A stretch of DNA of 64,000 nucleotides from Eukaryota sp. GEM-RC1 (Eukaryota), in contig JAUFOQ010000002.1 in NCBI GenBank assembly GCA_040285855.1, positions 2,852,001 through 2,916,000 of the forward strand, written 5' to 3'. Positions 1-43,584 of the stretch are shown in pieces (position 1 is the stretch's first letter; each line of letters starts with the position of its first letter). Position numbers and translations under genes: made by a program. A model generated the notes under the pieces. That model was not told the DNA's origin. It saw nothing but the letters and a program-made list of their open reading frames with translations, and ran no database searches.

Positions 1-2768
1 GAATTTGTGCGGCAGTAACAACTTTTCTAATTCCGCCTTTAGATAATGTGAGTGGTTCTAAAGACTCAGATATTTCAGAAAAGGCAAGTGGCTGCCAATC
101 AAGAATGATTGACAGCTCATCAGGTTGATCAATCAACAAAGAGAAATCCTCGACTTCCAAAGGTTCTGGACTACTATGGAACTTTGGAGAGTCAACAGGA
201 ATCAATCGGACCGAATCAGGGGTAAGAACTTTCCCAATATAACGTAACTGATGACAATGAGCAAAAAACAACACGCGATTTGATAGATAACAATCAACCA
301 ATCGATCAAAACAGGTCAAATAATCAACGAGATTCAAGCAGACTCTGACAGCACATCCCAAAGTCAGTGCATCAGTATAGATAGACCTCTTGTCCCCATT
401 AATTAGGAGACTAATGTCAATGGTTTCGAGGGAGGAGTCGTTGACTAGAAGAGATAACATTGAAGAAAGAGTTGTTGAACAAATATGATGGGAAGTCAAT
501 TCTTGAATAATTTCAGGAATTTTTTCAGAATTTGAATTATTTGATGAATTTTTGGTAATGAATAGAAAGTCGTTAACTGCTGTTTTAGTTGCTGCCAAAA
601 GACATTGAAAAGTTGCTGCTTTCAGCGCTAGAGCTGAAGTTTTAGTCGTAGGTCTGTGAGTTAAACAAAAGAGCTCTGAACTGAAGAAAAGAAATTTAAA
701 ATTTGATGAAACGAATCCAAAGTTGATGCTTCAAGCACTTCACCTACAGGCCACGAATCACACCGAACCCCACCAAAATCTTTCAACAACATGGAAATTC
801 CTTTAGGAAAGGGACAAAATGAAGGTCCATTTGTTCCCTTTTTAATGAATCTGTAATCCAAATAACAACTAGAAAGTACTGTACCAAAAGAGGAAGTTAA
901 TAACTCAGTGGAAATGATTGCTAGGGAATAGTCATCCAGACTTTCGATATCGTTATGAAATAGTACATTGAACACGTGATCCAAGTGTTGGTGCAAGTGT
1001 TGGACGTAGAGAGGGCATGAAGTAGGGGAGGAGTGGTGGATGAGTACGGATAACAAGGAGCAGAATTGGACAGCGCTTTCGATTAGCATTAGTTCAGCCT
1101 TGTAGATATTTGAAAAAAGTGTCAGAATTTCAAGTTCCTTAGCCATCTCCTGAGAGAAAGCCAATACTGAACCAACCTTCTGTACCCGTTTCTCAATGAG
1201 CTTCATTGAGTTCAATGATTGTTGAAAGATGACGAGATTCCCGTCATCATCGACAACAAAGCATTTAACTGGAGCAAGATTGAACAACAGAGCTATATCA
1301 ACATCTTCAGAAACGACATTACTAGAAGAATTTAATGTATTTTGGGAGTGATCGTAGAACTTCTTCATTGTTTCTTCAGTTGGGTCAACCAAGGAGTAAC
1401 CGAAACTAGACGAATCGTCAGAGCTATCAATGAAGGTAGACCATCTTTTTAAATATTCTAAATAATTCAACATTGAGAGAATTGAAATTCGACTGCTGAC
1501 TAGAGCTAAATGTCGCAGTACAAGAAAGGAGAAATACTTTCGATTATTCACTGTATTTAAATTTTTAAACGACGGACACGTGTCAACACTTTTGGCAGTT
1601 TTCTCACCGACCTCCATCAAATTAATCATCGACAGTGATTGATTAAGATCAGTAGAGCTCGGTGATGACGTTGTCCTCCTAAATCTATTCGCCAAAAGCT
1701 TAACATCTTTACATTTTAAACTTTTCAGCTCCGCAACGATGGCCAATGAATTTTCAAATATTACTTCAGATTTATAAAAGAACGATTGAGCAAAGGTCTG
1801 AGTAGGAGAAGGTAGTCCAAAAAGCAGAGGCTGAGCAACGTGAAAATAGGCCTCTCTTGTTGAGCAATCATCAATTAGTGCGAACATTGAATCCTCTTGA
1901 ATCTCGTCATTTTCTTCAGAAGTCATGGGAAAAGAATCAAAGAACAAATGTTGGAATTTGACTCCCATGTGGAGCAACTTCTCACACTCAAAATACAATT
2001 GATCCTCATTAAGTCCGTAAGATTCTTTAGGACCATCGGAAAAGGAAACTAAAAATCCAAAATATTCAGTTAATTCAGAAAGTTCTTTCTCCCACCCAAA
2101 ATTAGAAAACATATCTCTATTCTTTGACAATACCTCTGTCAACAACTGCTCAGCTCTAATAACAACCGTCGAATGATCAACATGAAGGGCAGCTTCAAGG
2201 GAGGGTCGGATGAAGCGAAGAAAACGTTTGCCTTCCAGTTCTTGGGCTTTAAGTGAGCAGGCGAGTGTAAGAGCATTAAGGAGAGAACTGGGAGATTGAG
2301 AGGAGAAGGAGTGAATGTAGTGAGAGAGAGTTGAGAGTTGATCAGATTTAGTGTTGATCATGTCAGTTAGAAAGAGAGAAGAGTGGGTGGAGTCACTGGA
2401 AGAGGAACGATGGATTGAAGATAAACGGTGACGTAGAAGGGTTATGGAGTGTTGGAGAGAGTCACGGTGTTGTGTGAGGAGATTTTGAGAGGAATTCATG
2501 AGATCTGGGGCAGTTGGGACAGAATAGAGAGAGGTAAGATCAGAGAAACAATCCAGGGAGTACGTAGAATCAGACAGGGAAGGTTTAAGAGCAGAAAGAT
2601 CTGATAGAAGTGAGTCAAAGTCAATGGATGGAAAGTCTATGGATGTTTGGCCTTCAAGTTCACATTTTTTAGTGAGATGAGCAGCATGCTCTGACAGAGA
2701 TCGCAATTGACCTATAAGATCATCAGTGGACAAAGAAAGATAGCTTGCAAAGGGTGCTCATTGTCCAT
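1..2768 (-). CDS. Large host protein of unknown function, runs off the window start
   Basis: ORF 661-2733. ATG at 2768 (MDNEHP) joins it with a 1-nt shift. At ~665 another frame stays open toward the window edge. Confidence 0.6.
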
Positions 2769-2799
2769 GAATCTGAGAAGATGTCTAACAAATTCTAAG

Positions 2800-2875
2800 A
2801 TTCAATAATGCTACAGATTCACTGTAGTAAATACTATGACTATGACAAATAACTGGGTCTAACTCCTAGACCCCG
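2800..2875 (-). ncRNA. Candidate Fanzor omegaRNA scaffold (3' part), overlapping the end of the ORF
   Basis: Hairpin gggtcta-5nt-tagaccc (2855-2873) in the last codons and ctacag-5nt-ctgtag (2811-2827) after the stop, just inside the putative element end. This is where TnpB/Fanzor omegaRNAs lie. Confidence 0.5.
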
Positions 2876-4935
2876 CTCCAAATGATGCTCCACAATGGTC
2901 TTGATGTTGATACATGCTAACTTGTTACGATTCCAAACCTTGGCACTACCATGACATTCTTCTCTACATTCTTGGGACTTGCATCTCAACAAAGCGTGAC
3001 ACTTTACCAGAGGTTTCTTCTCTCTTTCCATGGTTTTGGATTACTGATTTCTTTGAACACTTTAACGGGCTTCCAACAAGTAGGACACTTTGAAGAAGTG
3101 TAACTCTCATCTACGAGAACAAGGTTGTAACCATTTCTCTTAAAGAAGTTTCTCCACATCACACCTCTACTTGATCGGAGGTGTTTTAGGTTATGCCTCT
3201 TATTACCATTGTCACCAAACATCAATACACAGTCATTTTTATTCCATCCTTTTGCAGTCATATTTTTCAACAACTTATTTTCTGTTTTTTGAATATGGAC
3301 GTATCTTTGCATTTTTGAATGCGCCATATCATCAAACAGTAGTAATTAAATGTTGATTCAATAACTGTAAGTTTGGAACTCACATAGTCATAGAAGGTTT
3401 CATAAAGAGTGGACTTTGAATTTTCTTTTGACAACTGTTTTTCCATCTTGGAGAATGAATTCTTTTTTCTTTTCTCTTCTAAACTTTTGATGAACTCTGG
3501 ACAATCTCGACCATTCTGTCTCTGTCAATCTTAGCCACTCGTATTCTTTGTTTCTCATTTCACGAGCAGAATTTTCAGGCTTTCTTATTTTTTCTGAGCA
3601 GAAGTAGAGTAAATCCTTCTTGCCAGGATCAATGTAAACTTTTGTTTTCAATGAAAACTCTTCAACATCATAGTCTTGAACATATTCTTCTTTACTGGAG
3701 AACTTTACACTGTCTGGTTTAAAGGACATTCCCACACAGTCCTCTCTGGTAAGTTCAACACAGGCAGAGAAACCATCAGTTTTAATGGTATTGTTAAACT
3801 TATAACCTTTCTTTATAAATGGACGATTAAAGTTGAAAAAGTAAGACCAGAATTGATTTTGTTCAGCAGGAGACATTCTTTGAATTTCATCTTTTGAATT
3901 CCACTCAGACATTTTCTTCTTGACATTCACTTGTTTTGTTGACAAAGTGGAACGTAATATTCCCCAAAGACCTTGTGTGTCTATTTCAAAGAAACCTGGT
4001 GTGACGTGACGAACAATAGGAATTACATTGTAAGCACTTGCTCCTTCACTTTCAAGATAGTTATTTATTTGAATGGCAGATTTAATAAAGGATTGAGGAT
4101 GTTCACGAACTGATTTTAGTAGAGATTTAACGACTTTCTTTTATAAACACCATTAGCATTTTGAACATCAATTGATGGTGGGAAGAGAACATCAATAAAA
4201 TATTTATCTCTAAACAATCCTTCAACATAGTCGTTAGTTGCCCATAGAAGTTTAATTTTACCTGCAATGTTCAAACTTCTATTACTGTCGTCTTGAAGAA
4301 TTTCTGTATTACATCTTTGAATAAATTGTTTTATTTCTGCACGGGTTTTTGGAATGTCATTTCTGTTACCTTCAAGAAAGACATTTTTAACTTGTCTAAG
4401 TCTCCAACGAAAAACAGACTGTTCTTTTTTTTGACATTGTTTCTTCTTGATCACTCTTTTGAAAATAAACATTAATAAATTTGTCAATGTATTGAGCATA
4501 TCGCATTTTAATGTTTGTGTCCAAATTCGATTTAATAGTTTCACCAACCATTGCCATAAGCCGTGAGGAATGAGCAGCTGGAAAGAGTGGAATTCCTCCA
4601 TTGTTGAGCATTACTTGTTTGTATTCTTCTAAAACAAAGTTTTTCAAGTGTTCATTAAATGCAGGAGCTCGTCCTTGATTACATAATTCAATCTCATTAT
4701 GTTCAGCAGAGATGTTTCTTAACAGAGTTTGAATATGCTCTACTTCTTTCCTTGTAATTAAAGGTAATTTTTTACCATTCTTATCCATGTGTAATAAAAA
4801 CAGCTTCAAACAATAGGAAGTGTGCATTCTAAGTTTGTGAACCAATTGAGCATAATAATCGAGTAATAACGTTAATCCAAAATGTTTAACAATAGACTTT
4901 AGTCCAATTTTATGTGTTACAAAAGTTGGACGAAT
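2840..4935 (-). CDS. Fanzor1 (TnpB-like RNA-guided nuclease) domain
   Basis: HKIGLKSIVK N-terminus, FFEIDT, FWSYFFN, IKTDGFSACV, RuvC-I YIDPGKKDLL, VLMFGDNG, VDESYTSSKCPTC, HALLRCKSQEC, WNRNKLACINI, RPSYLS end. Confidence 0.9.
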
Positions 4936-7900
4936 GATTTTATTTGATTGAAACAATAAAAACAACTTCAATGCTAGTACACTATCTTTGAAGCAATAGT
5001 TCACAACTTCTTGAGGTTTTTCAACAACACAATCAATAGGCAATAAGTGGTGAAATTCGTCATGAAGACGTCCTTTAGATTCGTTTAATAAAAACCAACT
5101 TAATGATCTTAAAGACTTTGAACATTTTGAAACAATAAATTGCTTAGCATAGACGTATGAATCACATACAATTCTACCAGCCCATTCAGAACAAACTTTC
5201 TGCCATAGAGATGATAAATGAGCTTTAGTTGTTTCATCTAGCATTGGTTCTGGAAAGTCGACTCCAAGTGTAACAATCCTGTTGCCTAAAACAACATTAT
5301 CGAAGTCAGTTATGTTAAATCCAGTTAAAACTGACGCATTTTTATCATTCAAATAGTTGACAAAAACTCTAGTAACTGTTTTTCGTTTTCAAAAAATCGA
5401 AGGTTTCTAGAATCAGGTGGCAGTTCAACATCAGATTCATGAGTCAACTCTAAAGTTGCAACAAAATTGTCTTGAAGGTAAAATTGATCTTTTATAAAAT
5501 GACCAAACACTCCAGAAATCATAAAAACTTGTTGGTTTTGAATCCACACTTCTTTTCTGCATCACTTTTCATTTTGAGAGATTCATTCTCGTTCTTTCTT
5601 TGATCATCCAACTCCTTTGTAAGTGTTTCTGCAGGGATTTGATCAATTTCTCTAGTTTCAATATCAAAAGACAATATAGAACAATGATTAGAGTTATTTG
5701 GTAATTGAGAATGTTTGAGAAACTCAATCATTTGTTTTTTAGGAGGTTTCAAACTCTTTGTCGCATTTGACACTCCACTTGCTTTTGGTTTGGTGGTTTT
5801 CCTTTTGGCAACTGTTGTTTTTCTATTTCCTGTTGCTGTTGTTGGTTCAGTGGTGTCAGATGATTCAATTGCTTCTGTTGCTTCTGTTGCTTCTGTTGTA
5901 TCAGGTTTTTCACAAGCAGCAACATTTATTTTTGGAGTTGGTAAATTTATTTCTGGAAGATCTGTTAACTCTGGACGACTAAAGTTATGATAACTTTCTT
6001 GAAATAATTCTTCAGCTTCTTCCAGCGCTTGTTCAATCATTTTTAACTTCAAAAGACGCTTCTTTTCCGATTAGACAAATTTCCAGGTAAACTTTTGAGA
6101 AAGTTTTGATAAGTGAGCTTTGATACCGTTTCCTTGTAACTACTATCATCTACCATTGTTTCAGGAGTTGAACTTTCAGATTGACACTGTACAGGTTGAT
6201 TAACAGGTGATTCAATCTCATCAGAATAAAACTCATTTAAAATACCTTGAGCATGAGTACATACATATTGTCGGTATTCATCAGGGTGATCTTCATCAGG
6301 GTGAGTAGTAACGATTTGAGACAATATTTGTTTTCTCATTTCTAAGGCATTACAAACAACACAATTAGAGACTTTAGACAGAATTTCGAAAAGATTTGTT
6401 GATGTTGATTCACACTCGACAAATTTATTCATATAAATTAGAATAAATGGACCACAGTCATTAAGAGTTTGGACTTGTTGAACTGGTACTCTAGCTATAT
6501 AGCTGAAATTTGCCATATCAAACAGGAATTGCTGTAATTGTGAAATGACTTTGTCAATACGTGATAAAGTGCTAGAAAACTGAGAATGTTGATCTTCTGT
6601 ACACATTGAGTCAATAGAGAATTATTGTTTGTTTTCAATATCACAGATTAACAGTGACCAGTGAGTGGCTGTTGTACCAAAGAGACCGTCATGTATTGGA
6701 ATAAACAAGAAACGTTTCTTACACTCTTTAGTGTGTCTTTTACTGGACTTTTCCATTGATAATTGAACTTCTCTAAATTGTTCAAACATTATGTTATATT
6801 GTGAAAGATTAATAGCATCTTGAATGTTGGCTACTTCAAAGAACTCGCATAGATTACTCTTTTCAGCAATGTACTGACCAACAAAAGTCAATGACAGAAT
6901 CATGAAGCAGCACATTGGGTTTCAGAGTGTCAATTTGATCAGATCTTAGTAAAAGTGGTCTAGGACGAGATTGTGTTAGAATTCCACGATGTTGATGTTG
7001 TAAGATTTGATATTTTTGAGAAAATTTCTTCTTTTTTGGAGGATATTTTCTAGATTGACGAGTTTTTCTTGTACGATTTGAGTCTATAAGTTGATTGGGC
7101 ATAGTCAATGGCACTTGTCGAGTTTCATCAGGAGATGAAACTACTGTTGGATGTTCGGCTATTTCAGAAGTACCAGCAGATCTATTCATTTGTTGTTGCA
7201 AAAATGTAGAATGAACTATGGCACTGTGTTCTTGAACATGTGCTTGAATGTTGTTTGAAAAGCACTCATGTACAATACTTACAGCAAGTATAGCAAAAGG
7301 AATAGGATGCGTGGTTGCTATCAGATTTAGAACTTGTTTTCTCATTTCAAAAGCATCATAATCAACATAACCTTGGACTTGAGACATAATTTCCTGGAAA
7401 TTGTCAGATAATGATGCCAAATGAACAAATCTTTGCATATACATTAAGATATATGGTCCACAGTCGTTGGGAGTTTGATGTTTAATAACTGGAAGCTTTC
7501 CTAAATTTGAGAAATTTCCAATATCACGCAAATATACCTGTAAAGTACTTACAACTTGATCATTTTGAGTTGAAACGTCAAATGAAAGTTGAATTGAACT
7601 GTCAGTGTACATTGGATCAAGTGAAGAAAATGATGTACTATCAATGTCACAAACAAGTAGAGTCCAATGAGTTGCTGTACCACCAAAGACACCATCGTTT
7701 ATTGGAATAAATAAAAACCTTTTCCCAGTCTCTCGCATTGAATTCTGAACATTTAGAAATTCAAGAGCTAATGTGTCAAAATCGCCATAACTCACTGCAG
7801 CATGAAGATTCCCGATAAGGAAAAACTGGCATAACTCACTATTCTCGGTGATGTACTCACCATAAAAGTCAACAACAGAATGATCGAGCCATACGGAGGG

Positions 7901-8092
7901 CTTCAATGTGGTAATTCCTTCCTCAGTGACAAAAGGACCAGGGTTTGACTCTATGTCTCCATCCGTGGTTAAATCATGAACAAACTGTGATGACGGTTGG
8001 TTCAAATGACTATTGAGAAATGACGAGTGATAGTGCGAGTAACTTAATCCTGTTACTATCACCCGAAACACTTTGCAGTGTTTGGAAAGCAT
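2840..8092 (-). CDS. Polyprotein: 2A leader, Ulp1, Ulp1, linker, PolB-type 3'-5' exonuclease, Fanzor1 (about 10 frameshifts)
   Basis: Ten abutting or overlapping ORFs from 6863-8182 down to 2840-3031 join by small frameshifts, mostly 1 nt, e.g. T5 at ~5365 and A8 at ~4428. The breaks fall inside domains. First in-frame ATG at 8092. Confidence 0.75.
4950..5690 (-). CDS. DEDDy 3'-5' exonuclease domain of family-B DNA polymerase type (no polymerase domain)
   Basis: ExoI ILSFDIETR, FENEKQLLEF, ExoII LTGFNITDFD, VCDSY, SLRSLSWFLLNESK, ExoIII NYCFKDSVLALKLF. ExoII/III share ORF 4396-5352 with the Fanzor N-terminus. Confidence 0.85.
6300..6950 (-). CDS. Ulp1/SENP-like C48 cysteine protease domain, copy 2
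   Basis: TLKPNVLLHDSVIDF, FLFIPIHD, THWSLL, SIDSM, QQVQTLNDCGPFI. Catalytic H, D and C plus oxyanion Q are present. Two frameshifts. Confidence 0.85.
7310..7930 (-). CDS. Ulp1/SENP-like C48 cysteine protease domain, copy 1
   Basis: TLKPSVWLDHSVVDFY, FLFIPIND, THWTLL, SLDPM, HQTPNDCGPYI. Confidence 0.9.
7934..7975 (-). other. 2A/StopGo ribosome-skipping peptide DLTTDGDIESNPG/P
   Basis: Exact match to D(V/I)ExNPGP, directly before the first Ulp1 domain. Confidence 0.9.
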
Positions 8093-8167
8093 CAAATAAG
8101 AAGAAAAAGGTGATAGTGCGAGTAACTTAATCCTGTTACTATCACCCGAAACACTTTGCAGTGTTTG
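8027..8167 (-). repeat. Two identical 58-bp copies (8027-8084, 8110-8167) of a two-hairpin structured motif
   Basis: Sense strand aaacact-gcaa-agtgttt cgg gtgatagt-AACAGGATTAAGTTACTCGC-actatcac, present twice with an 83-bp period. Confidence 0.9.
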
Positions 8168-8209
8168 CGACAAAGGGAACAAAAAAGATACAGGTCAAAA
8201 AGATTTCAA

Positions 8210-8219
8210 CTATTTATAG
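8210..8219 (-). promoter_or_regulatory. TATA-like box upstream of the polyprotein leader
   Basis: ctataaatag on the minus strand, ~40 nt upstream of the first structured motif. Confidence 0.3.
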
Positions 8220-8661
8220 CTGATGTTGACACTGACAACTTGACATTATGGCATCTTCATCATATGTTGTACTGGTCTTCTCTTCATGAACACACCTCCC
8301 TATCATCTTAATAGGTGAAGATCCTTTCAATCGTGATCTTTTACTGTGTTTATTTAGCTTCTTCAAAACAGAAGTTCATTTTGACTACAGCTAACTCCAC
8401 CATCATATGCACTCTGTCAGAACTCTTCTCATCTTCACACTTTTGAATGAAAGATTGGGACTGTTTTGATTCAAATGCAAGAAATTGGACACATCATGGT
8501 CATACTCACTCCAACACGTCCCAAATATTAAAGATTTGAACTGAGTTATAGTTTAAAATATTTACACTTACTTTTGTTGAGCACCGCAATGACATTCATA
8601 TAAATAAAACAAAACATAAGAACTACTGCTACATTTTCAACACATAGATGTTGATTTTGTT

Positions 8662-8783
8662 CAACATTTGTAATGACAATATTTGTAGATACAACATTTG
8701 TAATGACAATATTTGTAGATACAATATTTGTAGATATAATATTTGTAATGACAACATTTGTAGATACAATATTTGTAATGACA
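8662..8783. repeat. 15-bp minisatellite, 8 copies
   Basis: Units caa(c/t)atttgta(atga/gata). Confidence 0.9.
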
Positions 8784-8914
8784 CTCACTAAAATCTTGAT
8801 CTAGGGTACAGGTCATTGAAAAAAACGATGAAAGTGCAAAAACAAACAAATAATACAAAGATTAAATCCATTTATAAAACAAAAAATTAAAACACAACAA
8901 CAACTACTGATCTG

Positions 8915-11900
8915 CTACATTTTCCCCAAATTTGGGGAACACTTCCCCAAACCTTCAGCATTGACATCAACAATCTCATCTGATACTTGAGAATCATGTG
9001 CAGTCGGCCGACGACGTTGAATTTGGTCTAATTCAGATTCGTAATCGTTAGTAGAAGCTGAATAGTAATCCACTAAACTCTCCCAAAGCAGATTTGTTCG
9101 TAAAAGCTTTTCATGTCCACATATAAAATTACTAAACCTGCTTCTGGTCAGCATAATATTTATTCTTCGCTCATCTGTCAAAAAACCTAGACTTTGAGTA
9201 ATGTTGCCTTCTTGATAGGATCTCACTGTACTGATAAATACAAAATCTACTTCTTTTCCCTGAAATGCGTCAGTTGTTGATATCTGTACATTGTCTAAAG
9301 GTGGTTCAATAGAGTCAAACAATTGTCTGAGTTGATCAACCTGTGCCCTGTAAGGTGTCAACACTGCCACACTAAATGAACGCTTGAGAACTTTTTCCAA
9401 TGCATCTTTGTGATCCTTCAAAAAATCACAAACTCCTTTAATAACAGCAATGGCTTCGTGTTCGTTGAATAAACTACCTGCCAATTTTTCTGAATAATCT
9501 TGAATTGACCCCCATGTGTTTACAAAATGTCTTTTGGCACATGTCAATTGTTCACCAGTGATTGGTTCCACAGTGTCAATTTGATCACTGTAAAACATTG
9601 AATTAGAAAATGCCCACAATTCTGAGAATTGACGATATTGTGGATTCAGTAGTGTGTAGCGTTCTCTATCAAAGTGATGTGCCAAATCAGATTGATCAAT
9701 CAATCTTTCCATCAAAGACTTGGACAACCCTGGGTTTTGATTGAAGACTACAGGGGGTAATTGTTTATGATCTCCAACAATTACAATGGTTGTAAATTCA
9801 TTACAAATTCATAACGCAGCCACTAGTTCAGGCTCAGTTGACTGGCAAGCCTCATCAATAATTAAAAGTTGTGGTTTAAAAATACCTTTATTCCTGTAAC
9901 TGCTCGCTCCTGCTAATGTTGTGAAGAGAACATCATATTCTTTAGAAATCCACGAAAGATCATCCTTTTCTTCTTCCCTCATCTTGAGCAGCAGGTGTAG
10001 TGGTATGTGGCTGACCATGTTTAATATTCCTTCTTGGTTGTTTAAGTGGAGGAAGTCTGACAGCTTGTTGATCTAATAAATCTTGAGCATCTTGTTCATC
10101 TTGTTTTTCAGCTTCTTCTTTTGCTTGCTTTTGTTCTAACTTTGTACTTAACAAGAACGGTTGAACTTCTGGTAAAGGATGTAATTGAGAACTTATTCGC
10201 ATCAATTTTTGTTCATCAACTGAATGTTCATCAACTAGCTTGGCTAATATTACGTCAACTGCATTATTCGATGGAGCAGCTACCCAAACCTTGCATTTGT
10301 TAGACAAAAAGACATAATCAATTTGACAATGGTCGTTGTTTTCCCTGTACCAGGTGCTCCATGAATCACATATAGACCATGGGAAGTTACATGCAATTTT
10401 CTAATTTCTTCAATTGCCTTTTTTTTGACAGTCATTTAAATTTTGACAGAGTTCTGAATCAGTTTTAAAACTTAAACAACTTGGTAGTTGTGGTGCTTTA
10501 GGAATAATTCCTAACTGGTATTGAACACGTAGAGGAATTTCTAAATCCACCATGGCAGAAATTTGGCGCAAAAAGTGACTACCAGAACCGATTTTGACTG
10601 CAAACAGTACAGTAAGTGGGCAAATAGGGTCTTGGGTAATTACAGACATCTTTGACCATTGAGTTGTCTTTGATAGTCGATGACATTTACTGACTATTGC
10701 AAAATGAACATTGAGACTTGCAGCCATCACGTCAGCCAGAGATCCAATCATAAAAATATCTGATTCACCAACATGCTCACATTGTCGAACATTAGACAAA
10801 AATTCTTGAAAAGCCTGATGAACATTGACTTCACACATTGGTAGATCCTTGGAAATACCTCTATTCAAAAAAGTTTTACAACCATTAATATTTGGCCTAC
10901 TGGTGGGATTCTTCGTTCTATCAGCTAATAATATTCGAATATTAGTCACAAATCCCACTTCTTGTTCGACTGATTGTTGTAAAGAATAAACCATCAAGAG
11001 ATCTTGTTTGTTGAAATTTTTGAATCCGAGACAGCATGAAGATGTTACTTCGTCCAGAATTCAATCAATCCAGTCAGCCGAATATTTGGTTTGTAAATTC
11101 AATTTTGCTCTGAAATTAATTTTCATTTCATCTGGCATCTTGAATCTAGAATCATCTTGAGCTATTTCTTTGTCTTCAGCTGATTCTGTATCTTCGATTG
11201 CTTGTTTTTTGGAACTCCACCACATGAACATTAGTGGTACAAAAAGACTACTGACCGGAGTTTTTCTAGGTCGTTGGATCTGGGACGTTTGATTTGTCGT
11301 CTGAGGTTTTTTTCTGAAAAATTTCTTACCAAAAAGAAACGATGAAGTATTAGGCTCGACTTTATCTTTCAAATTCAATAAAAATAGTAGTTCTTTTTGA
11401 GTTGACGAAGAAAATTGTTGCTCTTCATCTTCAGACCAAAATGGAACAACCTGTCTTTGAATGAACCTATCTGATTTGGGAAGAGGATCAATACCAGTGG
11501 CGAGAACAGTGTAGCAATTACTCAGAGACAGCTGGTCGTCTGGTGGGGATCTTTCTAATTCAGGATCTTCAGGATCGTGTTCAGTCATTGTCTTGATAGT
11601 TTGTTTTGCAAACTGTACAGCTTCTTCATGGGTGTTACATCTGGCTGTGGTAGTTTGTAAAATCCCAAGCCATTGAGACTGGAAGTGTAACGGTTCATCA
11701 TACTTGATCCAATATTATGGTTGTTCCTTGTCGATGGATACAAATGCATGGCATCCCGCTTTCTGGTTGGGTCGGATTCTTCTTTTGTCTTGTTCCGTGG
11801 ACCTGGATCAGATTCAATGTCTCCACAAAGCGTAAGATCAATCTTGAAAAGAACATACAGCGAGTAACTCAATCCTGTTTGTATGCTCTTAATAGCCTTA

Positions 11901-11956
11901 TGGCTATTGGGGGATAGAAAGGTGAAAGGAGGCTCTTCTAACCTATAGAGTTCCAT
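8915..11956 (-). CDS. 2A-led Upf1/DNA2/NAM7-like SF1 helicase (frameshifted)
   Basis: Walker A IHGAPGTGKTTT (~10335-10370), VAAPSNNAVD, IIDEACQ, VGDHKQLPP (~9755-9780), SLMERL, LNPQYR, LTPYRAQV, TTDAFQGKEVD, FLTDERRINIMLTRSR. About 6 frameshifts. Confidence 0.88.
11798..11839 (-). other. 2A-like peptide DLTLCGDIESDPG/P (N to D variant)
   Basis: Matches 2A except DPGP replaces NPGP (gat vs aat). Lies at the N-terminus of the helicase ORF. Confidence 0.75.
11851..11908 (-). promoter_or_regulatory. Third, diverged copy of the two-hairpin motif, before the helicase 2A
   Basis: Sense strand aatagcc-ataa-ggctatt aa gagcataca-AACAGGATTGAGTTACTCGC-tgtatgttc. Same geometry as the other copies with different, still paired, stems. 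Confidence 0.75.
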
Positions 11957-12005
11957 ATAGAGTGTGGAAACACTTATTTTGAGTTCTTAATCACCCACTT
12001 CTTTA

Positions 12006-12603
12006 ATGTCATTCGAGTCCTTAGAATCTGAATACGACAAACTTATAGAACTTCTTTCTAATGTGAGCGATCCATCAGGAAATCTTCCGGATTCATCTTC
12101 TCCTGAATTCCTTCAACTTCTAAACCAAATCAATAAAGTCACTTGGCCTCTGCAGCAGGACGCTGTTAAAGCAATTCAATTAGGCTTGGAATACCAAGAA
12201 CTTGGAGAAGTAGCTCGCAATGTACACTCTCAGTTATCATCACTCAGAATTCGAGCCAATGTTCTGCAACGTGAACATGACCGTCTAGCTAGTGAGATTT
12301 CTAATCCCCTTGATGACCATCGTGATCTCATCCCACCAGAACTTCACCCCATTGACAACAAAGCCGAGCTGTTTGCAATCATGGATTATTATGATGTAAA
12401 AAAAATGTGATGCAAAATTGAAGTTGCTGGACATGCCGCCAGAACTCGATCCGCTTGATAATCCAGATGCGGTGGCTGCTTGGTTGAGAACACAAATTTT
12501 CCTACGGAGGCAAAAACAGCAGATGAAACTGCCAGAGCCCCAAAGAAAATTGGGGAAAAAGGCCAGCCAAGTAAAGAAAAAACGTATGAATTATAAACTT
12601 TAA
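12006..12603 (+). CDS. Small helical protein of unknown function within the element
   Basis: ORFs 12006-12410 and 12418-12603 join by deleting one A in the A8 run at ~12400. Internal repeat PPELHPIDN / PPELDPLDN and a basic C-terminus. Confidence 0.6.
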
Positions 12604-12854
12604 TAAAAATTTAATTTTAAGTTTATCATAGTCTATCATAGTAACACTTTACATGACTGAAAAGTGTAAAACACCAACAAATTTACGACCAATCTCCATT
12701 CCTGCAACCTAGAACATAAATCTGCCGTGCTAATCTAATCCCAGCTACAACCGTCGTTAGCTAACCTGAATTAAAACAAAAAAAAGGTATCTAAAAAGGT
12801 ATGTAATCAAGTATCAAATTCAAAACAGTCAATTTCTAAGCACTTTAACTCCAA

Positions 12855-14943
12855 ATGCCAATGTCGACTAAACCATCCGCTGTTGCAGCAATGTCTAGGC
12901 ACTCAATGGCTCAGCTTCTAGAAGGTTTTAAAAAAGCCTTAGTCGACACTTCTGAGTCATCATCAACCAATGACTTCATTCATGATCTCCTTAAAGATCC
13001 TCAGTCTATGCAAGTTAATCGCTGTACCCGATATATCAACCAAGTCTTTCGTTATGTAGAAAGTCCTCCAGAAAGTCGTGGAACTCTCATCAACCCTCAA
13101 CAATTCGTCTATTCTCTTGTTGAACTCACCATTGCCTCTTATGGACTCTCTCCTGACTCTTTTGCAGCAGTAGAACATGCAATAGAAGACTACATTTTCC
13201 CTCAAATCTATACTAAACTGCTTCCTCTTTGTTTCAGTGATGATGATCTCGTAATGCAAACACAATATGAACGCTTCTCTTCCATCACACAAGACCAACT
13301 CAAAATAGACTCGTCAATGATCGATGAATCCCTTTCTCCTTGGTCACACGCCATCGCCAAGCTTTCTACCCTCCCTCTAACCCCTTCTCCCACACGTAAA
13401 CTCTTCGTGATCCTTTCTGCTGCTCAATCAATCTATACGAATCCAAACATTGAAGGTGATACCAGCATTGGAGCTGATGTTTTTGTTCCTATATTTATCT
13501 ATGTCATTGTCAAGTCCAAAATTCCCAATCTATGGGCCGAGATCAAGTTTATTCACGAGTACGGCGCAGAACGTCATTTTCAAGGAGAACTCGGATATTA
13601 CTTTGTCACTCTAGAATTCTGTTCAAAGTACATACTTGACTTAACCTCTGATAAACTAGAGCCAATGTCTGATGAAGCTTTGTTGTTTCAAGCCTCTACT
13701 TGGTTAGTTGCAGAGAAACATCGGTTTCAGCAATGGTCGGTGAACTTTGGTTATGTATCTGTGTTGGATAATGTTGTTTTGAAAGGTGTTGTACCCGTCG
13801 TCCTATCTAAGTTTGTATTAAACAGAGCTTGCCCTTGGAGCGTTGTGCTGAAGGAAACTGGAAGGGAAGAGGACCAAGTAGACTTGTTGTTGATGAGAGC
13901 GAAGATTTCGAACCTCACTACTGCACAACAGTTGACCATACGTAAGATGTTCTTCGAACCCCAGACTTATGCTGAGCCTTTGTCTACGATATCGACTGGA
14001 TTTGGGTCGACGATTGTGATTGATCCTAAATCAGAAATGATGGAAGAGCTCGGAGCAATCGTACTACCCACGTCTTCTGTTGATCAGTCACTAGTCAGCG
14101 TTAGGAACATTCTGATACTAAAGTTACTTGGAATTGATTGTGGTCACGTTTCTGATTGGTCGAAAGTACCTCAATCAGCTGTGATCTCTTTTAGAGAAAC
14201 CTTTGCTGCCCCGCCTTATGTTCCTTTAACTGATTCTATTGGGGGAGTACTTACCGAGTTTCAGATTTATCTTAAGGCTTTTGATTGCCTGCCATTGATT
14301 GCCCCTCTCACTGCTGAGCCAGACACACCTTCCTATCACGGAGTTTTGAGGTTTTTAACCCTTTACAATGGTGATAATGAAACTGGATATGGAAATATGT
14401 TTGGAATTGCTCCTTGTAAATTTAATGTAAATTTAAAATATTCTGAATATACTGGGTATGATATCAGTAGGAACGTGTTTTCTTTCCCGCACGTTGAAGG
14501 TGCTCCAACGATTTTCCCTTTTTCTTTCACAATTCTGCAATGTTTAAGATCTCTAACTACCGTTGTGCGATCTCATTTAGATATGTTGGGGTTTGCTATT
14601 CCAAATCCCGTGACTTCTTTGCGGAATTTTTGAAAAAATGGAGGAATTTCAGGAAGCTGCGTCTGGAATTACTGTACGTAATGGAGTTTTGAATTCAAAA
14701 ACATTGCTCCGAATTATGGAGCTGATAACTGAAGAAAACTCTGATGAAAGGAAGGAATTGAAAGCTAAGAAGCTCAAAAGTAAACGTGTTAATGACGTTT
14801 CAGTAGTTGAATTACGTAGATTTTCATGTAGCAGAAATGCCAGACTTTCTGAATCTTCTCAACGAAGTTCCGTTGATGTTGAAGGATCGAGGTTTCCACC
14901 GATTAGTTTGATTCCAGTACCTCCTCAAAGTAGAAATGAGTAG
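12855..14943 (+). CDS. VPS9-domain protein (Rab5-family GEF)
   Basis: SPTRKL, IGADVFVPIFIYVIVK, GELGYYFVTLE. The C-terminus continues after a shift at a T/A run (~14630). Confidence 0.85.
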
Positions 14944-22776: not shown

Positions 22777-24060
22777 CTTTTCAAGATTTCTGGTTGTTTG
22801 GGATTTTACAAATGAAGTGTTTTTAAACACTCTAGTGGTGTTTTTTAACATCCACAAATTTCTGTATAATTTAGGTGTTTTTTAATACTTGTAGAAGTTT
22901 TAGTTTCTGATTTTAGGTATTTTTGTATTTGGTGTTGTTCAATACCAATTTCCGAGTGTTTTTCAACAGTTCGTGTTTCAGCATTTTGTGCTTGTAAATA
23001 AAAGGTATGTACAACAGTTGTTTTGTAATTATTTGGGTTACATATTTTTTCAAAACTGAATTTGTGATGATATCATAGATGTAAAAGCATAGCTTGAAAT
23101 GAACAGACAGGGGTTTATGATCAGTCAGTGAAATAAATGCATTTGCAGAAGTTAAATTAACATTACCACTAATTTCCTCATTTTAAAGATGAATCTGTAC
23201 GACTATTAAAGTATCATTCGTGATTTGTTTCCAAGCCTTACATGTCAAGTTAGCAGGTTGTATAGCTCTGTCGTATCATTCAAGAAAATGAAAAACTGTC
23301 GAAATCCCAGTAGTATATGTAATGTAATGATATTTTGACACAGAAAAGGATTGTTCCAACTTTCCTATTTTTCTAACATTGTGGACATGGTAGAAACAAT
23401 AGTTGAGTTTCTTCTTCATAACTTCAAGGTACGACAAAAAGTCGGCAGTGACAAGTATATTTATCTATTACTCAATACTGCTCTCCAATGGTTCATCGAG
23501 TGTATACAGACACTATACATTTAGCAGTCTTGTAAAGTTTTGGTTGAAACTCCCAATGATTCCTAGTGGTCTTGGAGTATTTCCATTCCTATAATGGAAA
23601 CGTTTCCGAAAAACAGAATTGGGAGTCAACAAACAACTTGATTATTCAAAAAAAATAACAGATTTTGAATGTGCGTAAGTACATTTAAATTATGAGTCAG
23701 TGAATGTCTAAAATTCTTCAAAAACGGAGTACCTTACTGTTGTCTTAAAATTGAATCCAGAAATTGGTTTTGGTGACTTCGGTTTCACATTCAACGTGGA
23801 GTACTTGTTATACGCATTTATACTTTCGAAATAAGCTACTTGAGAACTTTGTGAATATTGTTTGGAGAATATATTTTACTACATGTAGTAGTACATTATT
23901 GGTGACACTTGCTCTTGGAAAATTAGAAATTGTGGATTTGATTATTGACTTCGATTTCCAATAATTTGTTATCACTTGGAAGTCATTGTGAAGTTAAGGC
24001 GGTATAATACTAGTATTTACATAATGAGAATTTGGACTTTAAGGATATTGATCAATACTA

Positions 24061-24619
24061 CACTCTTCACAACAATTAGTCTGAATCAGACGAATTATGT
24101 ATGTCCATTGAAACATTACCAAACAATAATTTGTTTGATTCAGAGTAATTAGTGATTCAGACTAATAAATGTCTCGGAAAATTAGTCTGAATCAGAGTAA
24201 TTATGAATATTCATATTTAGTCTGAATCAATATCCCAAACACAAAAACTATCTTGATCCTCAAATCATGTTATGTCTTCATAAATGTTATGTTATACATC
24301 AGGATCGTTGTTGGTACCTTAAATAGAAGTATAAGACCGAAGAAATTGAGAAACAGGACTGATCGGCCATCGAAGTACCTCTTCAAAATTGATTAGTGAC
24401 CGAATTGTCTTCCAAACAAGTGCCAATAATGCATGACACGGGCTGTATATGGAAATTCAACCAAAGTGTCTCGAAAGAAAAGTGAAAAAAGGGATATATA
24501 ACACAATTTTGCTCAAAAGTATTGGATACTCCTAAGGTGGTCAAACAATAATTAGTTTGATTCAGACTAATAAGTGATTCAGACTAATTTTGAATTCAGA
24601 CTAATTGTTGTGAAGAGTG
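24061..24619. mobile_element. Tc1/mariner-type MITE
   Basis: Perfect TIR cactcttcacaacaattagtctgaat, TA duplication (24059-60, 24620-21), internal repeats of attagtctgaatca. Confidence 0.88.
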
Positions 24620-25399
24620 TAGCATTAGTAATTCTATTAGTAATTTGTTCTGAAGATAGGACCTTTTACAAAGTATCGGTCCAATAACTACCATAGCTGT
24701 TTTCATACAATAGCAAAACCCTCATGTCTGTTGTCAACAAATTTTTGCCGACGAAAGGAAAGTGTCACCATTTTTTCGCAATGTTTCAACAGTAGATCCA
24801 AGTGCTCAAACTTATGTTAACGGATTAAATGCAAAGGTTTCATTCACCTAGAAACAGCCTAAAAACGTAAAATTGATTTGTATTCCAAAGATGTTTCTAA
24901 ACTCAATCAAAAAGTATCTTCAAAATTTGTATTTTTCCATTTGCTATTTCTATTTTTGTTAGTATTGGTGAAATGGCTTCTCAGTTTTTAACTGATTTTG
25001 GATCTATGTGTAAGTCTCAGAGTAAGAGATTTAAGTTATCAATTTGGCACAACCGTTTGATTTATTCTTTGTTCCGTTCGATACCTCAGTTTTATAAATC
25101 AATCACAACAAAGCTGTATAAAAACTGTGGTACTGTTGACGAACAATTTTCTGTGTCTAGTGTTTCTTAGCTTCTTTTATGATGTGTTTTTTTGTACCCT
25201 TCAACGATAAACTGTTTTCGTCGAAAACCAAAATTCTGAAAGATTATAGTGTTTGTCACCTCATTTTTGCACAACTGTTTTGTGCAAGAGATTAATAAAC
25301 AGTTTTATTCATGATAAGGACAAACATATAGTAAATTATATATATTTTAACACTGTTTTTTATTGACAACAACACTACAGTGTACATCCATCTAACAAT

Positions 25400-32820: not shown

Positions 32821-34639
32821 GTTTTTGTGACTAGTTCATTTTGTAAAATGTTTTGGTGTTTTTACCGGTTTTTGTATTTTTTATTATGATGATAAATGAG
32901 GTTTTCCACAATATTTTAATTCTTTGTGACCAGTTATCAGATTTCAGACAGCTTCTCATTTATCTAATGTACTAGGATTTTTTCACGGAGTGACTGAGAT
33001 CTCGATCAGGAGGAACTATTGTGGTCTTCATGTTGGTTCAGAATATGGTAAGAATTTGTAGGAAGTGTATCTGTTTGGGTACCGTATAAAGTCTTTATAT
33101 TGGTACAAAAGTTCAACAATGTTGACTTGCTAAGTCATTTGAGTCTTTTTCACAGAAAAATACTTGTATTTGAAGAGAGAGTTCACTATTCTGCTTACAT
33201 TATTCTGTTTTATGTGTTTCAACTTGAGAATTTGAAAGATGAATGTAATGATGTGATTAGTATTGGTGATGAAAGCAACTTTCATTACTTAGAAACTCTA
33301 ATGAAAATTTTGAAACCGTGCTTTTTCTAGTAGTTGATGCTCTCTCCTTTAAAACAAAGCCTCTTGTTTTTAATCTAGTTGGAGGAAAGTATTGAACTTT
33401 CTGTCATTATGTACAAATGTTGGACTAACATACTCTTAAATGTAACCCTTCCATTCCGTACAGGTTATGAATTGTTTATAACAAATATTAATGATTCCTA
33501 ATGTGTGATGAGACTCACCAATGCAGAAACACTACTAGTACTATCACGGACAAATTATTAATAAATTGTTAATTGTATCGTTCAGGACGTTCCAGCAGTT
33601 AAAGCCATGTAACTAACTTCGATCTCTGCAATACAACTGAGGTACACTGTTTGTGTGCTGCTACCATGTTCACTGATACAACAAAACGATATCAATCAGC
33701 ATACACGAAGATCCTATTGTGAGTAAACGGCTGTTCTAATAGAGTTTATAAAGGTTGTATCACGAGGCTACTTCAATGATGGAAATGCTCTCAGAACTAC
33801 GTCTGTTTAGATCTTATACTCCATTAAGGATGATCAGATCGGTGGACTTCAAGTAATATTGTTCTTGCTGTAAACTCATTATCGACAAAGTGCACAGTAA
33901 CAGAAAAAGAGGACTTATACTCATATGTTTGGTGTTAGATAAACTAAAGATGAGATGCTGGAGAGAAATGCAGCAGTCAGAGATCTAATTTCATCGATCG
34001 TACAAGCATTTTAACTACTTTATTCCCTTGCAAAGTCGAACTGAAAACCAAGAGTTCAAAGAAGTCGATCAGGTTGAACTACAAGTGATTTGCAGGTTAT
34101 GAGCTTCATGAAAATATTTATTAATCTGGACTGTTTTTTGCGGTGAATACTTGAGAAATTGGTGCATTTTTTCGTCTGTTTATTTGAGGTTGACTGGAGT
34201 TCTGAGACTTTACATGATTGGATACTGAATCAATTCTACCTGAAGTAACATTTCTTACATGCAAAGTTTGCACCCTATTCCTATGGCCACACCATTCAAG
34301 AAGAATGTATAGTATTTGAAGGGGTGTAACACGTTTGATCGTTTCGACTTTCTTGTTGGATCTTTAATTACTTTATACAAACATAATAAGCACGATGTTG
34401 ACAAATTCTACTTTTAAGCATACTTGGAAAATACAAATACATGTGCTGTATTTTTTTTGTATTTTTGTATTTTTGTAGTTTCTCAGACTCAATAAATGCT
34501 GTATTTTTTGTATTTTTTTATGCTAAATTAATACTGTATTTTCTGTATTTTTATGGACACTGGAAAATGGTTCTCTACTGAATTTCTGGTTCGCCATCTG
34601 GAAATAAATCTGACCACAAATTGGAGTCAAGATTATTAA

Positions 34640-34825
34640 CCTCTTCCGCAAAAATTTGGGCCGGAAAATTCGGTGATTTTTCAGCAGTTAAAACTATTTA
34701 CCCATCTTTTTTCGGTCCAAATGAATAATAGTGGAATTTACACATGCAGTACAATTTCCCTATCTTTTTTCGCCACCATCTTTTTCGCCACCACTATTAT
34801 TCGGCCCAAATTTTTGCAGAAGAGG
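34640..34825. mobile_element. piggyBac-type MITE
   Basis: TIR cctctt(c/c)(c/t)gcaaaaatttgggccg matching 23/24, flanked by TTAA at 34636-39 and 34826-29. Confidence 0.85.
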
Positions 34826-36427
34826 TTAATTGAGTCGTAAAGACTAATTGACCATGCACAAGGTGTGAGAAGTTAAAAATCTTTTGTTTTCCACAACCAA
34901 GAACAACGATTCAGAAATTCAAACAAAAATTCTCCAAAGACTCCAAAAAGGCACATTCATTCATGTATTCGTTGCTTTGGATCTTTTAGAAGCATGGTCA
35001 AATTGTAGATCTGGATTTTGGTAAACAAGTGTCGTTGGCAATGCTTCCATTATGTTTTGGTGGTGATATACAATTTGGACGTGGTTTTCCACCTAAACAA
35101 ACTCTGGATGTACCTCGAAATTTCAATTCAATGTGTACCAATTTTGTGCCAACGGCAGTACTTTACAACTATTGTAGTCTTATTTAGGGAGGAGTTGTTC
35201 TAACCCAACACAAAAACCTTTTTGTTACCATCTTTGTCATGTATTAAAGCAACTAAGAGACCACCTGAAAAACCCTTCAAACTACAGCGATCGATCTCAA
35301 TCTGACCGTTGGTATCTCTTTTGATCTTAGCACGAGAAACAACTGGTTCCACAGTTGTGCCAAACGGATGACCAATAAGAAGAACACAATCGTTTTGTTC
35401 ACGAATCATAGCGTATTCCTTAACACTTTCTAAAACTATAAAGTTCCTAGCACTACATGAAAAGTTTAATTAAAGTAACCATACTTTATTTGTAAATTAA
35501 TGAAATTTTGTAATGTACAGAAATTAACAAACTACATGTACATGTATTAGTACTTAAAGATATTAAATGCTCTACATATACTCTACGAACCACGATACAA
35601 TTCGTCCGGAATACGATTTAAATACTTTGGAACACTTCTATACAATGAAAACACAATGCAATTGCACGATAGAGGTTTCTGAAAGAAGATTACGTACACC
35701 CACGAAATGATTTTGAAACAATAATATCAATGAGAATCCTCAGCAACATTACCATGAACGAAAATAATGACTAGACTTTTACTTCGAATCTGACAGAATT
35801 TCGCAGAATTTCTGGAATTCGGGGTTATTGACGACATTAGGAGCAATTCCACAAGATGATAACATATCAACTAAAGCAACATCGCATCTGTCTTTAAATA
35901 TGTCTTTAAGTCTAGTAGCCAACATGTTAAGAGCTAATGACTACTCATGCAAAGTGTACTACACGAACCCATGTGACCATGTTTGTATGGACCATTTGTA
36001 TCAACTTGATTTTAAACAATCTTTAGCTATTGTACCAACTTTTCAGAATTTTCAAATAATATCTTTTCAAGTTTAGTGTGCTTGATTTCCAAAAACTCTA
36101 TTGGTCCTGAAGGTGCCAGAGCATTGGCGGAGTCCTGAAAGTGAATTAAACAATGGTTCAAATTTATCGTGGCAGCTCTATCGACACTGAAGGTCCTAGA
36201 CAGTACATATGGATGCAAATGTGTAGCACACAACTCCATTGTACATCATGATATAGCACTACTTTCAGTGATTTCTCACAACTCAAGAAAAACTGATGTG
36301 CTCGTATTGTAAAAGAAATTGACGACTCAGTAAACACAAAATAGTGGTGTGATGTCAATTATTGAATTCTGTTGAATTCCGAATCTCTTGATGACTTTCT
36401 GGTCACGAAAATTAGAAATCACTCCTA

Positions 36428-42999: not shown

Positions 43000-43584
43000 C
43001 TAAACCACCAACCAAATTATATAAAATATTGTCCTCAACTTGTTAAAATTTCTTGAAAACTCGCAAGTAACCTCAGGCGGAAGACGTTTCAGCCAGTGAT
43101 TTATCTTAACAGCAAAACAAACCGGCAACACAGTAAAAGACACTTGCTTGCCAACATCCAAATCCAAAATTTGTTTCAATTGACAGAAAATGGAATCATT
43201 TTTGTCTTTCAACTTTTTCTTTGTTTCATTCAAATTACCAATGGAATTTGCTAGAAAGTTAATACTGTTTTCTGAGCAATTGAAAAGGAATCGGGTCATG
43301 ACATGCAAATGAATCTCTTTTGAGACCATCATTGACACACCTCTTAATTTTAATAGATGAACCAACTGACTCTGACAGACAAACAACACGAACAAAACCA
43401 CGGGTAAAAAAAGATCAAAAGTACCAACCAAAGATGTAACATCAGCGTAAGAATTAATTCTTATTTCTGGAAATTCAACAGAAAATGATCTCAAAATCTT
43501 CCATAAGGGCAAACAGAATAGAAAGGGACCCAAAGTTTCACCTTGTTTAACTCCACGTGAAGAAATAACATTGTAATCGACCAC
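43000..43584 (-). pseudogene. Decayed non-LTR reverse transcriptase fragment
   Basis: SSRGVKQGETLGPFLFCL, SYADVT (degraded YADD), KINHWLKRLPP. Confidence 0.8.

What the first reader, a model, noticed from the sequence alone, without database searches (positions are those of the whole stretch)
2840..8092. Fanzor fused into a polyprotein with a PolB-type 3'-5' exonuclease, two Ulp1 proteases and a 2A leader
Seen: domain order 2A - Ulp1 - Ulp1 - Thr/Lys linker - DEDDy exonuclease - Fanzor1. All three Exo motifs (DIE, NITDFD, YCFKD) and both protease triads are intact. The Exo-Fanzor junction lies within one uninterrupted ORF (4396-5352), so that fusion does not depend on frameshift correction. 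Known: Fanzors are RNA-guided TnpB relatives of eukaryotic TEs and viruses, usually standalone. Inference: an RNA-guided targeting module coupled to end resection and deSUMOylation or self-processing. I do not recall this architecture being described.
Basis: partly seen in the sequence, partly recalled or inferred. Interest (0 to 1): 0.95.

Follow-up and report, generated by a model that had tools for sequence, protein, structure and literature searches.

The report
Fanzor fused to proofreading exonuclease
A multi-copy gene of single-celled eukaryotes, broken in this copy but whole in relatives, joins a Fanzor (predicted RNA-guided DNA cutter) to the proofreading exonuclease of a DNA polymerase and two proteases; the exonuclease likely trims the cut DNA end so that the element can copy itself in.

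Summary
Confirmed. The minus strand reads 2A - C48 protease - C48 protease - linker - PolB 3'-5' exonuclease - Fanzor1. This copy has 9 frameshifts and one in-frame stop, mostly beside homopolymers. Two named gene models of a relative (1846, 1905 aa) carry the whole order in one chain; 10 of 56 fetched models run from Exo I to the last RuvC motif. The fusion occurs in three genomes labelled GEM-RC1, TZLM1-RC and TZLM3-RCL (Skoliomonas-type metamonads), in families 24-55% identical, with an Exo III-to-Fanzor spacing of 55 residues in 8 of 9. I found it nowhere else. RuvC is D-E-N in 20 of 20 C-termini, the triad of the active GtFz1. Corrections: the proteases are closest to SENP8/NEDP1 and optional; a 3'-5' exonuclease cannot do classical resection. 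Best model (inferred): a homing nuclease whose exonuclease removes the ~15-nt 3' tail between cut and insertion junction, as the T4 polymerase exonuclease helps intron homing. Also found: a covarying RNA-like structure ahead of this 2A and of a neighbouring 2A-helicase gene. Element ends, guide RNA and transposase are not established. No paper I searched describes it.

The parts
8024..8083 (-). Structured motif inside the leader: 7-bp hairpin followed by an 11-bp stem closing a conserved 20-nt loop; function unknown
   Evidence: 11 of 18 pairs change on both sides against the copy at 11849-11908; G-U pairs point to the minus strand
8107..8166 (-). Exact tandem duplicate (83-nt spacing) of the structured motif
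7934..8092 (-). Leader peptide from ATG 8092 ending in a 2A-like core (GDIESNPGP, 7934-7960)
   Evidence: consensus DxExNPGP as given in PMC5814959
7300..7933 (-). C48 cysteine protease 1, SENP8/NEDP1-like, His-Asp-Cys and Gln present (ends approximate)
6290..6940 (-). C48 cysteine protease 2, tandem duplicate of protease 1 (66% DNA identity over 399 nt); broken by a frameshift near 6883 and TAA near 6622 (ends approximate)
   Evidence: whole in P0002/P0005
5670..6290 (-). Low-complexity linker with basic stretches, predicted disordered in the relative
   Evidence: pLDDT under 50 for residues 23-131 of P0012
4960..5670 (-). Family B polymerase 3'-5' exonuclease domain, Exo I/II/III residues present, no polymerase domain; frameshifts near 5556 and 5365
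2840..4930 (-). Fanzor1 (WED/REC, RuvC D-E-N, C4 zinc finger); frameshifts near 4428, 4141, 3430, 3316, 3026
2768..2880 (-). Candidate omegaRNA scaffold and right end: three short hairpins around and after the stop codon; not established
   Evidence: 2740-2880: z -1.93, 4 of 200 shuffles fold as well
8915..11986 (-). Neighbouring broken gene with the same leader design: structured motif (11849-11908), 2A-like core GDIESDPGP (11798-11824), unknown region, Upf1-like SF1 helicase; probably a related mobile unit, link to the Fanzor unit unproven

Best explanation
This is a copy of a multi-copy, likely mobile gene that fuses a Fanzor1 nuclease, predicted to be active and RNA-guided, to a PolB proofreading exonuclease that likely chews back the single-stranded 3' tail left by the cut so that the element is copied into the site by recombination (homing). 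Shown: domain order, catalytic residues, multi-copy spread, fixed junction. Inferred steps: (1) 2A skipping sheds the leader peptide; (2) Fanzor with an omegaRNA from the 3' end cuts an element-free site 14-21 nt from the TAM, as measured for SpuFz1 and GtFz1; (3) the TAM-side non-target strand then ends in a displaced 14-17-nt tail that in the donor lies on the far side of the element and must be removed before copying can be completed; (4) the fused exonuclease removes it, which also blocks simple re-ligation; (5) the SENP8-like proteases are optional accessories that likely strip NEDD8 or SUMO from nearby host proteins. How copies reach new loci is unknown; no transposase was found in the window.
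For: Whole architecture in single named gene models P0003 (1846 aa) and P0009 (1905 aa). 28 of 56 named models hold Exo III and the Fanzor start together; the 2 that hold the Fanzor start without Exo III begin only 20 residues before it. Exo III-to-Fanzor spacing 55 aa in 8 of 9 chosen representatives, 54 in one, across families 24-55% identical. Exo carboxylates kept across all families. The 10 Fanzor rows from the three genomes form one side of a 100/100 branch against 7 stand-alone relatives. AlphaFold2 model of P0012 matches SpuFz1 (Foldseek E 1e-26) and then PolB exonuclease domains. RuvC-III Asn in 20 of 20 C-termini; GtFz1 is active with this triad and SpuFz1 D606N is more active than wild type (PMC11423790). 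Cut positions from PMC10432273. Homing role of OMEGA nucleases reviewed in PMC13565253. The T4 polymerase proofreading domain contributes to td intron homing (PMC2988022, PMC12153337).
Against: No activity, RNA or DNA of sibling copies was seen. Homing has been shown for TnpB and IscB, not for Fanzor, in the passage I read. No transposase and no convincing terminal repeats were found, so nothing shows that empty sites arise. Engineered fusions of TREX1, TREX2 or T5 exonuclease to MmeFz2 lowered editing (PMC12923547). The relatives are predicted gene models whose DNA I could not see; predicted introns may bridge breaks. The position of the exonuclease relative to the displaced strand was not tested (pTM 0.57).
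Confidence: 0.5

Rival explanations
1. Cut-and-destroy: the exonuclease degrades the cut ends to make deletions, and the element uses the fusion against rival elements, viruses or empty alleles rather than to copy itself.
For: Same anatomy; exonuclease fusions are used by engineers to raise deletion rates in other nucleases (PMC12923547 passage). No transposase found.
Against: Dozens of dispersed, near-identical and often broken copies look like a selfish element, not a domesticated defence gene; no guide array was seen in the window.
Confidence: 0.2
2. The exonuclease trims the 3' end of the omegaRNA precursor (guide maturation) rather than DNA.
For: omegaRNAs extend 14-15 nt into variable flank and must be trimmed (PMC10432273); DEDD folds include RNases (recalled).
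Against: Sequence and fold matches are to DNA polymerase delta, alpha, epsilon and herpesvirus exonuclease domains, which act on DNA (established).
Confidence: 0.1
3. An RNA-intermediate element: the transcript is reverse-transcribed in trans at a Fanzor cut, the trimmed 3' end serving as primer.
For: 5' structured motif plus N-terminal 2A recalls the ribozyme-plus-2A leader of L1Tc (PMC5814959); many models share the 3' part but differ 5'; a weak RT-like fragment lies at 43003-43650 (E 0.0098).
Against: No RT in the unit, no poly(A) after the ORF, no Rfam match for the motif, and I could not fit it to an HDV-like or hammerhead core by eye. 5'-variable copies also arise from incomplete gene conversion or gene-model errors.
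Confidence: 0.1
4. A passive relic: Fanzor landed in-frame in a viral or Polinton-like protease-PolB gene and the exonuclease is a bystander.
For: Polinton pPolBs have a protease-Exo-polymerase order (PMC11161782).
Against: That protease is vOTU, not C48; the exonuclease here matches RNA-primed PolBs; catalytic residues and junction length are kept across three genomes and deep divergence.
Confidence: 0.08

Closest known systems
Fanzor1: SpuFz1 (PDB 8gkh, 9ceu), PpFz1 (9cf0), GtFz1 (9cer)
   Same: Fold, DPG RuvC-I, Glu six residues before the zinc finger, C4 finger; D-E-N triad as in GtFz1
   Different: These are stand-alone proteins of about 600-720 resolved residues; here the domain is the C-terminus of a 940-1900-aa chain behind an exonuclease
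I-TevI homing of the T4 td intron with the gp43 3'-5' exonuclease and DexA (PMC2988022, PMC12153337)
   Same: A homing nuclease helped by a PolB proofreading exonuclease
   Different: Separate phage proteins, protein-guided nuclease; here a single chain and predicted RNA guidance
Engineered exonuclease fusions to Fanzor2 (TREX1, TREX2, T5 on evoMmeFz2; PMC12923547)
   Same: Exonuclease tethered to a Fanzor
   Different: Man-made, other exonuclease families, and they lowered editing; this one is natural with a fixed junction
L1Tc non-LTR retrotransposon leader (Pr77 ribozyme plus 2A; PMC5814959)
   Same: Structured 5' element followed by an in-frame N-terminal 2A in a protist mobile element
   Different: No RT or AP endonuclease here; the motif matches no Rfam family
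MCi-2 Fanzor1 elements of Mucor (PMC3627910, section 12)
   Same: Conserved 3' Fanzor region with variable 5' regions, no recognisable TIRs
   Different: No exonuclease or protease fusion reported there
SENP8/NEDP1 deneddylase (PDB 1xt9, 2bkq) and Ulp1 (1euv)
   Same: C48 fold motifs and triad; best PDB sequence matches
   Different: Here one or two copies ride at the N-terminus of a mobile-element protein; substrate untested

Membership tests
Fanzor1 | RuvC-I DPG motif | tested here: met
   IDPG 3622-3633; definition PMC10711439
Fanzor1 | Alternative Glu six residues before the first CxxC | tested here: met
   VDESYTSSKC 3085-3114
Fanzor1 | C4 zinc finger between RuvC-II and RuvC-III | tested here: met
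   Pfam TNB 23 bits, under the 26.3 cut-off
Fanzor1 | Third catalytic residue Asp or, as in GtFz1, Asn | tested here: met
   Asn in the window and 20 of 20 models; PMC11423790
Fanzor motif as written in 2013 (PMC3627910) | Terminal RD strictly conserved | tested here: not met
   RN here; the later-accepted GtFz1 fails this too, so I file under the widened definition
Fanzor1 | Overall fold with enlarged REC | tested here: met
   Foldseek E 1e-26, TM by target 0.75 to SpuFz1 for the relative P0012
Fanzor1 | omegaRNA from the 3' end with variable guide | tested here: inconclusive
   hairpins at 2768-2880, z -1.93; no sibling DNA or RNA reads
Fanzor1 | RNA-guided DNA cleavage | not testable with these tools
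   needs biochemistry
PolB-type DEDDy exonuclease | Exo I DxE, Exo II NxxxFD, Exo III YxxxD | tested here: met
   Pfam above cut-off
Family B DNA polymerase | Polymerase (palm/fingers) domain after the exonuclease | tested here: not met
   no DNA_pol_B match in any fused model scanned; Fanzor follows directly
Peptidase C48 | His-Asp-Cys triad with oxyanion Gln | tested here: met
   second domain interrupted in this copy
Peptidase C48, Ulp1/SENP1 SUMO-specific branch | Closer to Ulp1/SENP1 than to SENP8 | tested here: not met
   SENP8 ranks first in 3 of 3 searches; margins modest, specificity untested
2A/StopGo peptide | DxExNPGP core in frame | tested here: met
   7934-7960; relatives carry exact or deviant cores in 8 of 56 models
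2A/StopGo peptide | Ribosome skipping | not testable with these tools
   needs a reporter
Non-LTR retrotransposon | Reverse transcriptase in the element | tested here: not met
   no RVT match among 18 frames of 1-12400 or the full-length models
Polinton / PLV | pPolB palm, integrase, packaging ATPase, capsid genes | tested here: not met
   none in Pfam scan of 1-12400; host genes resume at 12849; no structure-based capsid search was run
Helitron | HUH Rep fused to a Pif1-type helicase | tested here: inconclusive
   neighbouring helicase is Upf1-like; its N-terminal 430 aa stay unassigned
DDE cut-and-paste transposon | Terminal inverted repeats and target duplication | tested here: inconclusive
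   only an 18/23 pair at 2768-2790 and 8415-8437, reached by 4 of 200 random pairs and picked after the fact

The most novel reading that the evidence does not exclude
A transposase-free class of eukaryotic selfish element that spreads by its own RNA-guided cut-trim-and-copy enzyme: Fanzor opens the site, the fused proofreading exonuclease prepares the 3' end exactly back to the insertion junction, and partner units with the same structured leader and 2A (such as the neighbouring helicase gene) supply the rest, possibly through an RNA intermediate.
Probability: 0.2. Interest if true: 0.95.

Novelty: new variant of a known kind. Interest (0 to 1): 0.82.

Why it matters
What Fanzors do for their elements is still open; a lineage that has welded a DNA 3'-end-trimming enzyme onto Fanzor and kept the junction fixed gives a direct test of the homing model (Exo-dead versus wild type) and says that end processing is a limiting step. 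It is also a natural template for exonuclease-coupled compact editors, where hand-made fusions to a Fanzor2 failed, and it adds a second natural group with the D-E-N triad, which searches that demand a terminal Asp would miss.

Tried and rejected
Nuclease-dead Fanzor: my first reading of the RD-to-RN change, dropped after PMC11423790. Sibling DNA: no whole genome is held; no sequencing run was listed (no evidence either way); metagenome scans found no relative among 595 and 153 pattern hits; viral scans none among 243 and 1 of 116, which proved to be a chance frame in a phage tail-sheath gene and was dropped. The 20-nt loop had no exact match in viral or prokaryote contigs. Rfam gave nothing credible in 1-13000. 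The fold of 10413-11714 was unusable (pLDDT 30); Atlas searches for 664-2757 and 11064-11714 gave only weak leads. The helicase search found one distant protein only. The protein search used a wrong frame and is ignored. Assembly chimera as the cause of the fusion: rejected, since it recurs in three genomes. Earlier scan notes on this genome or sequence: none. No complex prediction was run.
Full report
1. Observation. Six-frame translation of 1-12300 shows the minus-strand order leader-2A, C48, C48, linker, exonuclease, Fanzor between 8092 and 2840. Pfam supports protease 1 (32.3 bits, cut-off 20.7), the exonuclease piece (24.5, cut-off 23) and, below cut-off, the TNB finger and the two halves of protease 2. 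Exo II, Exo III and the first 180 residues of Fanzor lie in one stop-free frame, 4396-5388. A frameshift-aware alignment to four close named models found 9 frameshifts and one in-frame TAA. Eight of the nine lie beside runs of 4 or more bases (background 26%, P 1.4e-4); the slip at 3316 is shared by 6 GEM-RC1 models and read through by 18 models of the other two genomes. Host genes nearby are long open frames. I read most breaks as uncorrected long-read errors in a repeat, with some real decay possible; no reads were available.

2. The fusion is real and multi-copy. The junction frame finds P0001-P0004, named gene models of Eukaryota sp. GEM-RC1 (78-91% identical) and TZLM3-RCL (50%). P0003 (1846 aa) and P0009 (1905 aa) hold 2A, two C48 domains, the exonuclease and Fanzor in one chain. 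A phmmer scan of 1.84 billion representatives gave 23 hits: 8 span both exonuclease and Fanzor, all named from these genomes or TZLM1-RC; 3 cover the Fanzor part and belong or seem to belong to the same group; 1 is an archaeal PolB; 11 are stand-alone Fanzors from metagenomes. That these labels are Skoliomonas, free-living anaerobic metamonads, is my inference from the name GEMRC in PMC11316075 (passages) and recall. Of 56 named models fetched, 28 hold Exo III and the Fanzor start together, 10 run from Exo I to RuvC-III, and none has a long non-exonuclease N-terminus directly before Fanzor. These are predicted models whose DNA I could not see. A single-sequence scan can miss distant fusions, so restriction to this lineage is not proven.

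3. The constant unit is Exo-Fanzor. Families are 24-55% identical, yet Exo III to the first Fanzor helix is 55 residues in 8 of 9 representatives and 54 in one, with no linker. The exonuclease carboxylates are kept in every family (one copy has Exo I Glu to Lys). On a tree of the Fanzor part, 10 rows from the three genomes are one side of a 100/100 branch against 7 stand-alone relatives (unrooted, few outgroups, one long branch). AlphaFold2 on P0012 (pLDDT 72.7, pTM 0.57) matches SpuFz1, PpFz1 and GtFz1, then Pol delta, alpha, epsilon and herpes exonuclease domains; sequence search agrees. Proteases come in 0, 1 or 2 copies and are exchanged between families; the two in the window are a tandem duplication. 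They rank SENP8/NEDP1 above Ulp1 in 3 of 3 PDB searches.

4. Catalytic state. RuvC-I Asp and the alternative Glu are present; RuvC-III is Asn in the window and in 20 of 20 models with a C-terminus, against Asp in 8 of 8 stand-alone relatives that reach it (12 examined). I first took this as nuclease-dead. PMC11423790 (passages) reports that GtFz1 cuts with D-E-N and that SpuFz1 D606N is more active than wild type, so the domain is predicted active.

5. Leader. Upstream of the 2A, and again upstream of a second 2A-like core at 11798-11824 that leads a broken Upf1-like helicase gene, lies a hairpin plus an 11-bp stem with a conserved 20-nt loop. Between the two independent versions 11 of 18 pairs change on both sides and sliding the partners destroys the pairing; the structure was derived from these sequences, and only two independent versions exist. 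It lies in the reading frame before 2A, so the 2A would discard the peptide it encodes (inference). No Rfam match.

6. Ends. No clear TIR, target duplication or poly(A) was found; hairpins after the stop codon are compatible with an omegaRNA of about 75 nt but prove nothing. No transposase was found in 1-12400. Every attempt to fetch sibling DNA failed (see Tried and rejected).

7. Mechanism. SpuFz1 cuts the non-target strand after base 16-17 and GtFz1 after 14-17 (PMC10432273, passages). If, as for other OMEGA systems, the element sits between TAM and guide-matching flank (PMC13565253, passages), the TAM-side product ends in a displaced 3' tail that does not match the donor at the left junction. 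A proofreading exonuclease is suited to remove such a tail. T4 td intron homing uses the polymerase's 3'-5' exonuclease and DexA (PMC2988022, PMC12153337, passages; the primary 1999 paper was not held). That yeast Pol delta proofreading removes short non-homologous tails is recalled, not checked. I give this model 0.5; cut-and-destroy 0.2; guide trimming 0.1; RNA intermediate 0.1; passive relic 0.08. Against easy optimism, man-made exonuclease fusions lowered MmeFz2 editing (PMC12923547, passages).

8. Novelty. Searches: Fanzor+exonuclease+fusion, Fanzor+catalytically inactive (33), Fanzor+nuclease-dead (65), Fanzor+domain architecture (69), TnpB/Fanzor/fused/proofreading exonuclease (107), Skoliomonas (23, 72), 2A/transposon/Ulp1/polyprotein (80), 2A-like/non-LTR/ribozyme (99); mostly listings seen. 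Term searches in the main text found no exonuclease in PMC3627910 (also outline, first third of Results and section 12 read), PMC10530073, PMC10432273, PMC10711439 and PMC10691335, and no Fanzor in PMC11316075. The text of two supplementary files of PMC10530073 had none of six terms, but its fig. S1B, a census of extra Fanzor domains, is a figure I could not see, and Repbase and subscription papers were not searchable. Also read as passages: PMC6338049, PMC11161782, PMC5814959 and bioRxiv 2026.06.03.729735. Unchecked notes of this scan describe FEN1/XPG-Fanzor fusions in fungi, which, if right, would make repair-nuclease capture by Fanzor a recurring theme.

9. Verdict. A real, apparently undescribed variant of Fanzor1 with a fixed, catalytically complete exonuclease partner and optional protease modules. 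Interest 0.82.

Noticed in passing
window 8915-11986 (-): Broken 2A-led gene ending in an Upf1-like SF1 helicase (Walker A 10337-10360, Walker B 9848-9862), two in-frame TGA stops and several frameshifts; shares the structured leader with the Fanzor unit; no close full-length relative found.
   Followed up: partly
window 8024-8083, 8107-8166, 11849-11908 (-): Unknown structured motif: stems fully exchanged yet paired, 20-nt loop 19/20 identical; 3 matches in the window against 0 in 100 shuffles. The two independent versions are all the evidence.
   Followed up: partly
window 8632-8807: Tandem array of 15-bp units between the helicase gene and the Fanzor unit.
   Followed up: no
P0011 (KAL0221217.1): Gene model joining a DEAH-box helicase to the linker-Exo-Fanzor part (95% identical to P0009 from residue 676); either a 5'-truncated insertion into a host gene or a gene-model artefact.
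   Followed up: partly
P0020, P0042, P0057: 2A-protease modules are swapped between families: P0020 shares its protease with P0057 (78%) but not Exo-Fanzor (27%); P0042 shares Exo-Fanzor with P0057 (98%) but not the protease (32%).
   Followed up: partly
window 43003-43650 (-): Weak reverse-transcriptase-like fragment (RVT_1 E 0.0098, below cut-off).
   Followed up: partly
window 48078-49619; 24054-24626; 34635-34830: Inverted-repeat-bounded elements (274-nt arms at 91%; 33-nt and 35-nt arms), MITE-like.
   Followed up: no
window 2-2757 (-): Long frames directly downstream of the Fanzor with no Pfam match; weak helical-repeat look-alikes only; probably a host gene whose start lies next to the element's right end.
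   Followed up: partly
precomputed annotation of P0001, P0003, P0004, P0019: A newer Pfam family PF26935 is listed on Fanzor-bearing models; the local Pfam copy did not report it, so I could not read its name.
   Followed up: no
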